A stretch of DNA of 64,000 nucleotides from Eledone cirrhosa (taxonomy: Eukaryota). How positions within the stretch are numbered: the first letter of the stretch is position 1; each line of letters starts with the position of its first letter. The notes under the pieces were generated by a model. It saw only the letters and a program-made list of their open reading frames with translations, searched no databases and was not told the DNA's origin. Both the position numbers and the translations under genes were made by a program. The stretch spans positions 5,022,001 to 5,086,000 of the forward strand of contig OZ024754.1 of NCBI GenBank assembly GCA_964016885.1. Reading direction: 5' to 3'. Positions 19,795-57,060 of this stretch are shown in pieces.

Positions 19795-20013
19795 TAGGGT
19801 GTAGTAAAAACCAGCTAGACCATAACCCACCCGAGTACTCAATATCTGGAGTAGTAGAGTGGGTTATATTAAAAAATTCAGGACCCCGACGGCTGAGCTA
19901 GCATTGGTTGTGGTCTCGGAGCTTATAGTCGATCCACTGCTTTCGCCAATGTAACCACTCTGTATTTTACCATATATCGAGTACTTCGCTGATTTGTGGT
20001 CTTCCCAGTCACC

Positions 20014-20060
<47 letters not shown>

Positions 20061-20093
20061 TGATGACTGGGAAGACCACAAATCAGCGAAGTA
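19795..20093. mobile_element. Family P relic (probable Penelope-like terminal repeat fragment) with a 30-bp inverted repeat across (TA)n
   Basis: Homologous to 7275-7385, 24460-24636 and 42211-42430 (GACCATAA..CAC..AGTACTCAA..AGTAGAGTGGG..GGACCCCGACGGCTGAGCT); 19982-20011 is the reverse complement of 20064-20093. Confidence 0.6.
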
Positions 20094-24459: not shown

Positions 24460-24636
24460 AATGTGGTAAGGAACCAGATGGACCATAACGCACCAAAGTA
24501 CTCAATACTTAGGGTAGTAGAGTGGGTAATAGGAAAAAGTAGGACCCCGACGGCTGAGCTCAAGCCATTTCGACGGCTAATTCCAGTCCAGAATTAGCCG
24601 TCGGAACGGCTTGAGCTCAGCCGTCGGGGTCCTACT
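24460..24636. mobile_element. Family P relic with 46-bp-arm fold-back
   Basis: 24538-24583 vs 24591-24636, 2 mismatches, 7-nt loop; arms contain G(A/G)AA-YGGCT-TGAGCTC-AGCCG-TC-GGGGTCC (3' half of a hammerhead). Confidence 0.75.
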
Positions 24637-29026: not shown

Positions 29027-29753
29027 CCATGACTTAATTAACATCCATTGTGTATATTAAGGCAACCTACCTACTATAAGTTTTGTGAATCTCGAAACAG
29101 TGAAAGCCTCAATCATTATTCTATCATATTGTTATTACTGTTGTTGTTGTTGGCCTTGTTTACTGTATTTAAATTGTTATTGTTTAATTAACCCTTTCGT
29201 TATCATATTTCTAATGAAAGACACATACTATCTTTGATTTTCAAATTATTTCATAATCAAGGATCTGTTGAGATTTAGTGACATAAACCCAACTTTCTCA
29301 ATATTTATCTGCTGTTTGGAAAATAATTTTAACAAAGGTCTTTATATAAATTATATTTACAGGGTTTTTGGTTGAACACAAACAATTTAAAACTTGGATT
29401 TAAAATTTGGAATATAATTTTAACAAAGGTCCTTATATAAAATTATATTGGTAGGTTTTTGGCTGAAATAAAATGTTAAGAAAGGTCTTTATATAAAATT
29501 ATATTGGCAGGTTTTTAGTTGACTATCAATAGTTTAAAATAGTTTAAAATAAACAGCTTTGTACCATAAAAACCTGTTTGTTTACTGGAGATTTCATTTC
29601 AAAGTAGTTAGTAACTTCTAAATCACACTGTTTCACATGAATGAAACAGTTCTAGTCTTGTAGAAGCCACTTTTATATCAAATTTTGTTGGTCTCACTCT
29701 ACTTATTTATTGAGTACCTCATTTTCTGTTGTTAGCCCTGATTTCATTCGGGA

Positions 29754-42210: not shown

Positions 42211-42430
42211 GAGTCTTTCATATAACCATACTCTACCACCCCAAGTATCGAGTACTCGGGACCCCGATGGCTGAGCTCTTGCCGTTTCCACAGCTAGTTC
42301 CAGACCAGGTCTGGAACTAGCTGTGGAAACAGCAAGAGCTCATCCATTGGGGTCCCGAGTCTTTCATATAACCATACTCTACCACACCAAGTATCGAGTA
42401 CTCTGGTGAGTAATAGTCTAACTGGTTTCT
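42211..42430. mobile_element. Family P relic: 53-bp-arm fold-back flanked by a 47-bp direct repeat
   Basis: Arms 42254-42306 and 42308-42360 (1-nt centre, 3 mismatches); direct repeat 42211-42257 / 42357-42403. Confidence 0.8.
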
Positions 42431-43110: not shown

Positions 43111-43232
43111 GCATATATATATACATATATATATAGATAGATATAAGTTTATTTCGGGTTCAATCGGGGGTAACCACAGTAAGTAAGGTATACTCAATAC
43201 AAAGCAGAGTATAAATATTTAACATAGAAAAG

Positions 43233-43281
43233 GCTTCTACAGCACTAGAACTGTTTCATTCGGGAGAAATCATCAAGAAGC
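43233..43281 (-). ncRNA. Mirror hammerhead copy on the opposite strand (core TTGATGA, C3U variant)
   Basis: Minus strand GCTTC-TTGATGA-TTTCTCCCGAAT-GAAACAG-TTCTAGTG-CTGTA-GAAGC. Confidence 0.6.
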
Positions 43282-43328
43282 TTCCTGATGATTTCTCCCG
43301 AATGAAACAGTTCTAGTCCTGTAGAAGC
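43280..43328 (+). ncRNA. Minimal type-I hammerhead ribozyme, intact core
   Basis: GCTTC-CTGATGA-T-TTC-TCCC-GAA-T-GAAA-CAG-TTCTAGTC-CTG-TA^GAAGC: stem I 5 bp, stem II 3 bp, stem III ACAG/CTGT, GUA triplet, predicted cut after 43323. Confidence 0.75.
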
Positions 43329-43352
43329 CTTTTCTATATTAAATAATTATAT

Positions 43353-45599: not shown

Positions 45600-45688
45600 G
45601 CACATATATACATATATCAAAGATAAATAGTCACACACACAAACAGAAATATACCCAGAAAAATATATAATGCATATATATATATATG

Positions 45689-46090
45689 CATTATATATTT
45701 ATGTGGGTATATTTCTGTTTATATATATGTGTATATATATATACATTATATATTTATGTGGGTATATTTCTGTTTATATATATAATGTGTATATATATAT
45801 ACATTATATATTTATGTGGGTATATTTCTGTTTATATATATAATGTGTATATATATATACATTATATATTTATGTGGGTATATTTCTGTTTATATATATA
45901 ATGTGTATATATATATACATTATATATTTATGTGGGTATATTTCTGTTTATATATATAATGTGTATATATATATACATTATATATTTATGTGGGTATATT
46001 TCTGTTTATATATATAATGTGTATATATATATACATTATATATTTATGTGGGTATATTTCTGTTTATATATATAATGTATATATATATAT
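45689..46090. repeat. About 58-bp AT-rich tandem repeat, 7 copies
   Basis: CATTATATATTTATGTGGGTATATTTCTGTTTATATATATAATGTG-(TA)n. Confidence 0.9.
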
Positions 46091-56847: not shown

Positions 56848-57060
56848 ATTGTTTCTACTTTTGGCACAAGTCCAGCAAATTATCCAGTGTATTACTGGTA
56901 CTTTATTTTATCGACCCTGTAAGGATGAAAAGCAAAGTTAACCTCGGCGGGATTTGAACTCAGAATGGCAAGGGCTGAGTTCAAATCCCGCCGAGGTTAG
57001 CTTTGCCTTTCATCCTTAAGGGGTTGATAAAATCAAGTACCAGTAATGCACTGGGATAAT
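56848..57060. mobile_element. Head-to-head inverted pair of family A SINE halves
   Basis: About 85-bp arms (56879-56963 / 56975-57060) with an 11-nt loop. Confidence 0.9.

What the first reader, a model, noticed from the sequence alone, without database searches (positions are those of the whole stretch)
43216..43345. Zero-spacer palindrome with a hammerhead ribozyme on each strand
Seen: a 130-bp palindrome centred on AAGCTT. The right arm reads as a complete type-I hammerhead (stem I GCTTC/GAAGC, CUGAUGA core, 3-bp stem II, GAAA, stem III ACAG/CUGU, GUA cleavage triplet). The left arm encodes the same motif on the minus strand with a C3U change. Known: minimal type-I hammerheads occur in the terminal repeats of Penelope-like elements, which often insert with an inverted terminal copy. 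Inference: transcription from either direction would give an RNA that folds either as a 65-bp dsRNA hairpin (ribozyme silenced; ADAR/Dicer substrate) or, if started near the centre, as an active ribozyme. A related fragment lies at about 29628-29670.
Basis: partly seen in the sequence, partly recalled or inferred. Interest (0 to 1): 0.75.

Follow-up and report, generated by a model that had tools for sequence, protein, structure and literature searches.

The report
Head-to-head stub of Penelope retrotransposon
This mirror-image stretch is one ageing copy among thousands of short back-to-back stubs left by a Penelope-like jumping gene, each arm carrying that element's predicted self-cutting RNA motif, and it is likely an insertion by-product rather than an RNA switch.

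Summary
The palindrome is real (65-nt arms, 3 mismatches, centre 43280|43281) but is only part of a 201-bp insertion (43145-43345) in a (TA)n tract: a tail-bearing arm (minus strand) joined head to head to a tail-less arm. Both arms are the front end (pLTR) of a Hydra-clade Penelope-like element. A full-length sister copy with a telomerase-like RT and GIY-YIG ORF lies elsewhere in the genome (85% identical arm). The family has 7,605 exact 26-mer sites; 50 of 85 consecutive loci are head-to-head, mostly with one tail. The zero-spacer centre is a minority junction (128 exact sites). Junctions pile up at the first base of hammerhead stem I, 30 nt after a TATA box that this copy lacks, so they likely mark the RNA's 5' end; two cDNAs primed from both strands of one cut are the likeliest origin. 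The hammerhead shows stem I covariation between subfamilies and a U10.1-U11.1 closing pair; activity and expression are untested. The architecture is published, and this scan has reported it many times on other DNA, including this genome. Verdict: new member of a known kind, low interest.

The parts
43145..43345 (.). Whole insertion: two pLTR front ends of a Hydra-clade Penelope-like element joined head to head in a (TA)n tract
   Evidence: Boundaries shared with other copies; architecture as in full-length L194; no TSD beyond TA microhomology
43145..43280 (-). Tail-bearing (long) arm
   Evidence: 128 of 135 columns identical to copy L003; 85% to the pLTR in front of the intact ORF in L193/L194
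43145..43215 (-). One-sided tail (about 70 nt) between the two family end points
   Evidence: Outer arm ends cluster at +58..+62 (36 of 100) and +120..+130 (39 of 100)
43233..43281 (-). Type I hammerhead copy with private C3U change (43276); predicted cut 3' of 43238
   Evidence: C at this position in 206 of 235 arms
43278..43283 (.). Zero-spacer junction inside stem I 5' strand; arises from the native GGCTTC start by a 2-nt self-complementary overlap
   Evidence: Native upstream context at 879 sites; 128 exact perfect centres; 8 perfect plus 3 C3U-type of 90 near-start junction sites listed
43281..43345 (+). Tail-less (short) arm ending at the pLTR boundary
   Evidence: 66 of 66 identical to L003 and L147; ends where the 3' pLTR of L194 ends
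43280..43328 (+). Type I hammerhead with intact core, U10.1-U11.1, 3-bp stem II, 4-bp stem III with CUAG-centred loop; predicted cut after 43323
29628..29745 (+). Older relative: single tail-bearing arm without the CUGAUGA box, with a 9-bp inverted remnant at its 5' end, followed by (TA)n
   Evidence: 74% over 115 columns to the long arm, E 6e-14

Best explanation
The palindrome is a stub-sized head-to-head insertion of a Hydra-clade Penelope-like retrotransposon, likely made when the element's enzyme cut both strands of a (TA)n tract and primed two short cDNAs at two internal sites of its RNA, which ran off the RNA's 5' end and were joined. Shown: family membership, the parent element, the two outer end points that bound the tail, the pile-up of junctions at the first bases of stem I, and the fixed 30-nt distance from the TATA box to that base. 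Inferred: that this base is the transcription start, that each arm is a separate cDNA, and that the zero spacer comes from annealing over a 2-nt self-complementary overlap. The hammerheads are passengers of the pLTR; the one on the plus strand would be silenced by the hairpin in any read-through RNA, and this copy has no promoter of its own.
For: Parent: L193/L194 have inverted pLTR with tail, pLTR, 713-aa ORF and tail-less 3' pLTR; model pLDDT 93, best Foldseek match telomerase TERT, E 6.5e-9; Hydra motifs conserved in 112 aligned proteins. Architecture: 50 of 85 consecutive loci head-to-head, 41 of 50 with exactly one tail, 54 of 100 inner ends at -6..-1, and in 36 of 50 elements the longer-reaching arm stops at -6..-3. 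TATA to base -6 is 30 nt in 33 of 42 native contexts, also in a subfamily with a different spacer. Either arm can be the one that reaches the start: 10 tail arm against 7 tail-less arm among 23 asymmetric junctions, 6 unscored; a tail-less cDNA cannot template a tail by fold-back. At stem I/cut-site junctions the tail is on the truncated arm in 16 of 21, on the full arm in 4, on both in 1, the reverse of what fold-back predicts. PMC11167929 (parts 1-2 of 4 read): a PLE protein nicks and extends both strands, starts RT at two internal sites that bound the tail, and uses uncleaved RNA.
Against: No RNA data, so the start site is not observed. Deletions after insertion clearly occur (internal deletions in L248, L274, L275) and can mimic one-sided truncation. 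The two arms usually share subfamily variants (loop II identical in 17 of 26 against 12% between elements), which fits fold-back as well as two primings on one RNA. 6 of 50 elements reach upstream of -6 and 879 sites keep native upstream sequence, so not all arms are start-site run-offs. No intact ORF of the window's own subfamily was found among the loci fetched (L182, L185, L098 carry only the ORF start). The sample was anchored on an exact 26-mer and BLAST ends are only approximate.
Confidence: 0.62

Rival explanations
1. Same element, but the mirror arm is made by self-priming: one cDNA (or antisense RNA) folds back near the 5' end and copies itself, and later deletions blur the junction.
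For: Proposed for PLE palindromic junctions in PMC3846280 (passages). Arms share variants within an element. The window's own perfect junction fits a fold-back.
Against: The tail-less arm is the longer-reaching one in 7 of 17 scored asymmetric junctions and in 16 of 21 cut-site junctions; two-tail and no-tail elements exist (1 and 8 of 50).
Confidence: 0.22
2. The palindrome is a self-propagating non-autonomous mini-element (MITE- or SINE-like) copied as a unit from a palindromic master.
For: 128 exact copies of the perfect centre; 24 of 90 listed near-start sites share another single junction.
Against: Junctions are highly varied (0 of 50 perfect centres in the consecutive sample); the same junction occurs with the tail on either side and in different loop II subfamilies; the promoter is missing.
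Confidence: 0.09
3. The locus is a functional RNA switch: read-through gives a dsRNA hairpin for ADAR/Dicer, a start near the centre gives an active ribozyme.
For: Folding gives the two alternative states; plus-strand core intact; U10.1-U11.1 is a known natural variant (PMC3088659 passages).
Against: No TATA box at the centre; minus core mutated; 5 substitutions and a 2-nt insertion against the closest copy; stem I lost when 90 nt of flank are included; metazoan PLE hammerheads cleave poorly alone (PMC4209133, PMC11167929).
Confidence: 0.05
4. Fold-back assembly or library artefact.
For: No listed contig spans the centre.
Against: Arms differ at 3 positions, are of unequal length with family-specific ends, the junction recurs at 128 sites, and both private left-arm bases are in run contigs.
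Confidence: 0.02

Closest known systems
Hydra clade of C-terminal EN+ Penelope-like elements (PMC8557442, section 11 and passages read)
   Same: Parent ORF has DKT, RW(K/R), CxCX5C linker, CxxC and CxH around conserved E and N, C-terminal GIY-YIG-like domain; hammerhead in pLTR; insertion into (TA)n; inverted 5'-truncated copy with a one-sided tail.
   Different: Tail is about 70 nt rather than 30-40 nt; the L194 element is longer than 3 kb because of a microsatellite 3' UTR; the window copy has no ORF at all.
Adineta vaga Penelope insertions with head-to-head inverted pLTR and palindromic junctions (PMC3846280, passages read)
   Same: Head-to-head junction palindrome, optional tail on one inverted pLTR, TATA box in the pLTR, solo pLTRs.
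   Different: Those copies have TSDs and few members; here thousands of stubs in (TA)n without a discernible TSD, and the junction statistics favour two primings over the self-priming proposed there.
Minimal type I hammerheads of metazoan PLEs (PMC4209133, parts 1-2 of 4 read)
   Same: Type I topology, short stem I, palindromic stem III loop able to form a dimer helix (-13.4 against -1.7 kcal/mol), mostly in truncated copies, pairs on opposite strands noted at 100-700 bp.
   Different: Stem II is short (3 bp) and closed by U-U instead of G10.1-C11.1; stem III has 4 bp; the two copies abut with no spacer.
Poseidon PLE of Anolis, PAc (PMC11167929, parts 1-2 of 4 read)
   Same: Two internal RT start points bounding the tail; both strands extended; insertions retain the uncut ribozyme.
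   Different: Different clade; there the hammerhead overlaps the ORF start, here it lies about 175 nt upstream of the ATG and begins at the inferred start site.
Non-LTR retrozymes (bioRxiv 10.64898/2026.07.22.740005, part 1 of 5 read)
   Same: Non-coding, type I hammerhead, PLE-related.
   Different: Retrozymes are tandem direct repeats; this is an inverted pair of pLTR ends.

Membership tests
EN+ Penelope-like element insertion | pLTR linked to an ORF with telomerase-like RT | tested here: met
   In sister copies L193/L194, not in the window: arm 85% identical to the pLTR before a 713-aa ORF; Foldseek best hits TERT. Pfam alone gave no RT hit.
EN+ Penelope-like element insertion | C-terminal GIY-YIG endonuclease | tested here: met
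   Y602, G604, R613, H617 100% conserved in 112 rows; PF01541 E 0.019 (below cut-off) in L193, over cut-off in homologue P0075.
EN+ Penelope-like element insertion | Inverted 5'-truncated copy with one-sided tail | tested here: met
   Window element and 41 of 50 head-to-head loci; L194.
Hydra clade | DKT and RWK motifs | tested here: met
   D116 100%, K117 100%, T118 88%; RWR in the parent, K in 80 and R in 28 of 112 rows.
Hydra clade | CxCX5C linker, CxxC and CxH around E and N | tested here: met
   C566/C568/C574, C666/C669/E672, N685, C694/H696 at 99-100%.
Hydra clade | Phylogenetic placement with named Hydra references | not tested
   No reference Hydra sequences were at hand; assignment rests on motifs listed in PMC8557442 section 11.
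Type I hammerhead ribozyme | Core C3-A9, G12-A14, A15.1-U16.1, H17 | tested here: met
   Plus arm complete; minus arm C3U.
Type I hammerhead ribozyme | Helices supported by covariation | tested here: inconclusive
   15 hand-picked arms: 92% cells paired, 2 stem I pairs change on both sides; covariation score reached by 1 of 500 shuffles but number of such pairs by 378 of 500; stems II and III do not covary. Loop II varies (62-83%) while stem II is 93-99% conserved.
Type I hammerhead ribozyme | Paired 10.1-11.1 | tested here: not met
   U-U in the whole family (229 and 228 of 235 arms); a reported natural variant.
Type I hammerhead ribozyme | Rfam hammerhead model match | tested here: not met
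   No hammerhead family among 38 matches at E<=10.
Type I hammerhead ribozyme | Self-cleavage | not testable with these tools
   Indirect only: 21 junctions end at the cut site, confounded by 6-nt stem I microhomology.
Non-LTR retrozyme | Tandem direct repeats each with a hammerhead | tested here: not met
   Inverted pair only.

The most novel reading that the evidence does not exclude
These stubs are a genome-wide record of the PLE replication cycle: the ribozyme starts on the first transcribed base, so cleavage would decap the RNA; cDNAs primed from both strands of one cut run off either the capped start or the ribozyme cut, and the two strands of stem I give them 6-nt complementary ends, so that the 16:4 skewed cut-site junctions record hammerhead cleavage in the germ line and joining of cDNAs from a cut and an uncut RNA.
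Probability: 0.3. Interest if true: 0.55.

Novelty: new member of a known kind. Interest (0 to 1): 0.27.

Why it matters
The locus itself is an ordinary decaying transposon stub. The family matters modestly: how Penelope-like elements make their inverted ends and what their hammerhead does are stated as open in PMC8557442 and PMC11167929, and thousands of junctions plus an intact sister element give a countable test of two-ended priming against fold-back and of ribozyme cleavage in vivo. Read-through of such stubs would also be a source of double-stranded RNA in this genome, which is untested.

Tried and rejected
Rfam scans of the window and of the locus gave only microRNA-type hairpin matches below gathering scores (one search showed 150 of 361). 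First candidate parents were wrong: related stubs in L056, L067, L071, L078 lie next to GIY-YIG ORFs of other PLE families but in their (TA)n flanks, with unrelated intervening DNA; the RT beside L098 belongs to another family inserted in a TA tract. My recalled label Nematis was dropped after the Hydra motifs were tested. A fixed-centre mini-element, suggested, was a query bias. 'Neither arm contains the other' (14 of 41) was weakened because at least 3 are internal deletions. A cap-templated extra C at GAAGCCC junctions cannot be told from microhomology. PDB sequence search found nothing under E 0.5; the protein atlas gave no answer. Sequencing runs: no RNA holder listed. L194 folding was off by one base; redone, where that subfamily's monomer is not predicted to fold as a hammerhead (stem I <=0.03), a result against easy activity. 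Dropped rows: 5 second-arm duplicates and 6 unfetched places of the first 100; 16 of the 85 loci are passengers of one larger repeat and stay in the denominator; 10 of 19 control matches are one duplicated sequence. The paper on PLE hammerheads cleaving as dimers (recalled) was not held; PMC7229834 was seen only as a search listing. No supplements were read; those of PMC8557442 and PMC4209133 may already list this family or its ribozyme.

Full report
Observation. The palindrome is as described: centre between 43280 and 43281, 65-nt arms with three mismatches. The plus arm reads as a type I hammerhead with a complete core and a predicted cut after 43323; the minus arm has C3U. My descriptor finds one hit in the window against 0.005 on average in 200 shuffles. 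Stem II is three pairs set off from the core by U10.1-U11.1, a natural variant reported in PMC3088659 (passages). Rfam lists no hammerhead family here.

It is a repeat, and it is asymmetric. The window lies in a 3.0-Gb, microsatellite-rich animal genome. The right arm gives 404 candidates, 40 scored; a 26-mer of stem III has 7,605 exact sites. Copies show a short arm ending in TA-like sequence and a long arm with about 70 further bases, both flanked by (TA)n. In the window the long arm is the left one, so the insertion spans 43145-43345. The short arm is identical to other copies; the long arm has 5 substitutions and a 2-nt insertion against the closest one. Contigs of three runs from one sample hold the left arm's private bases and the right flank, but none listed spans the centre. 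With 128 exact copies of the centre, an artefact is unlikely.

The parent. Following the tail led to an ORF start and to two loci with an open 713-aa ORF among 15 fetched. L194 has an inverted pLTR with tail, a direct pLTR running into the ORF, a microsatellite 3' UTR and a 3' pLTR without tail that ends where the window's short arm ends. Its pLTR is 85% identical to the window's long arm. Pfam did not recognise the RT, but a model from 112 sequences (pLDDT 93) matches telomerase TERT best, and the motifs given for the Hydra clade in PMC8557442 section 11 are conserved. No intact ORF of the window's own subfamily was seen in the loci fetched. The window element is thus the same architecture with everything between the two ends missing.

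Where the junctions fall. I took 94 of the first 100 places listed, giving 85 loci. 50 are head-to-head, 41 of these with exactly one tail; 16 others are passengers of one larger repeat. Outer ends cluster at +58..+62 (36 of 100) and +120..+130 (39 of 100), counting from C3. Inner ends cluster at -6..-1 (54 of 100); none of the 50 has the perfect centre. Among the first 100 of 1,047 matches for junctions near that point (90 sites, counted by eye), 24 and 11 are two asymmetric types and 8 plus 3 are the window's type. In native context (879 sites at one mismatch) stem I is 6 bp and its first base lies 30 nt after the first T of a TATA box in 33 of 42 cases, also in a subfamily with a different spacer. 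That spacing is the usual TATA-to-start distance (own knowledge), so the junctions likely mark the RNA's 5' end. The window copy has lost this TATA box to the inversion.

How it forms. PMC11167929 shows for another PLE that the protein nicks and extends both strands, starts at two internal sites that bound the tail, and uses uncut RNA. Here either arm can be the one that reaches the start: 10 tail, 7 tail-less, 6 unscored among 23 asymmetric junctions. A tail-less cDNA cannot template a tail by folding back, so two primings fit better than the self-priming proposed in PMC3846280. Against this, later deletions occur and the arms of one element mostly share variants (17 of 26 against 12%), which both models allow. 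A search for Penelope with twin priming, inverted and head-to-head (listing only) showed no paper applying the term to PLEs; searches found none on this family.

The ribozyme. Between subfamilies stem I changes on both sides at two pairs and loop II varies while stem II is kept, which suggests selection in the master elements, though the control on pair number is not passed (378 of 500 shuffles) and the 15 rows were hand-picked. Predicted stem II is weak, the stem III loop favours a dimer helix, and the L194 monomer is not predicted to fold as a hammerhead; low unaided activity is reported for such motifs (PMC4209133). Most insertions keep the uncut 5' part. 21 junctions join an arm ending at the cut site to an arm ending at the start, against 9 independent matches spread over the next 14 positions (compared with 16 of the same variant). 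The tail is on the cut arm in 16 and on the full arm in 4 (two-sided p about 0.01 by hand). This fits cleavage in vivo, but the two stem I strands give a 6-nt microhomology that could produce the excess without a cut.

Read-through RNA does lose all hammerhead helices, and the isolated plus arm forms stem I (0.91), but not with 90 nt of flank. There is no promoter at the centre, no mirrored A-to-G change in this copy and no sign of conservation. I take the two folds to be a by-product.

Verdict. A new family member of a published architecture (PMC8557442, PMC3846280, PMC4209133). The scan's index holds 556 findings in at least 48 genomes with these words and several in this genome with the same reading; these are unchecked notes and are not counted as support. 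Interest 0.27.

Noticed in passing
window 24538-24636 and 42254-42360: Two related GC-rich hairpins (46- and 53-nt arms) of another repeat family; similar sequence lies beside stubs in L071, L099 and L025 and shares a short motif with the tail of this family. Possibly ends of another PLE family.
   Followed up: no
window 56884-57054, 19982-20093, 45641-45720: Further long inverted repeats: head-to-head halves of a common dispersed repeat (81-nt arms), and two hairpins with a (TA)n centre.
   Followed up: no
L196-L200, L204, L209, L210, L244, L246, L252, L254, L255, L260, L264, L267: A truncated arm without C3 sits inside a larger young repeat with near-identical flanks; 16 of 85 sampled loci, so it inflates the 7,605 count.
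   Followed up: partly
L062-L081: Other PLE families with different type I hammerheads (some with very short palindromic stem III, some with long stem II) and multi-kb head-to-head palindromes, e.g. L067 (3.7 kb) and L077.
   Followed up: partly
L056, L067, L071, L078, L099: Stubs of this family are often nested in the (TA)n tracts that flank insertions of other PLE families, building clusters.
   Followed up: partly
listing; window 43276: The same C3U change occurs in 3 of 11 listed perfect-type junctions besides the window; background is 12 of 235 arms, so it may be chance.
   Followed up: partly
L218, L235: The two arms differ at the subfamily-diagnostic base +45, a hint that some elements were built from two different RNAs.
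   Followed up: no
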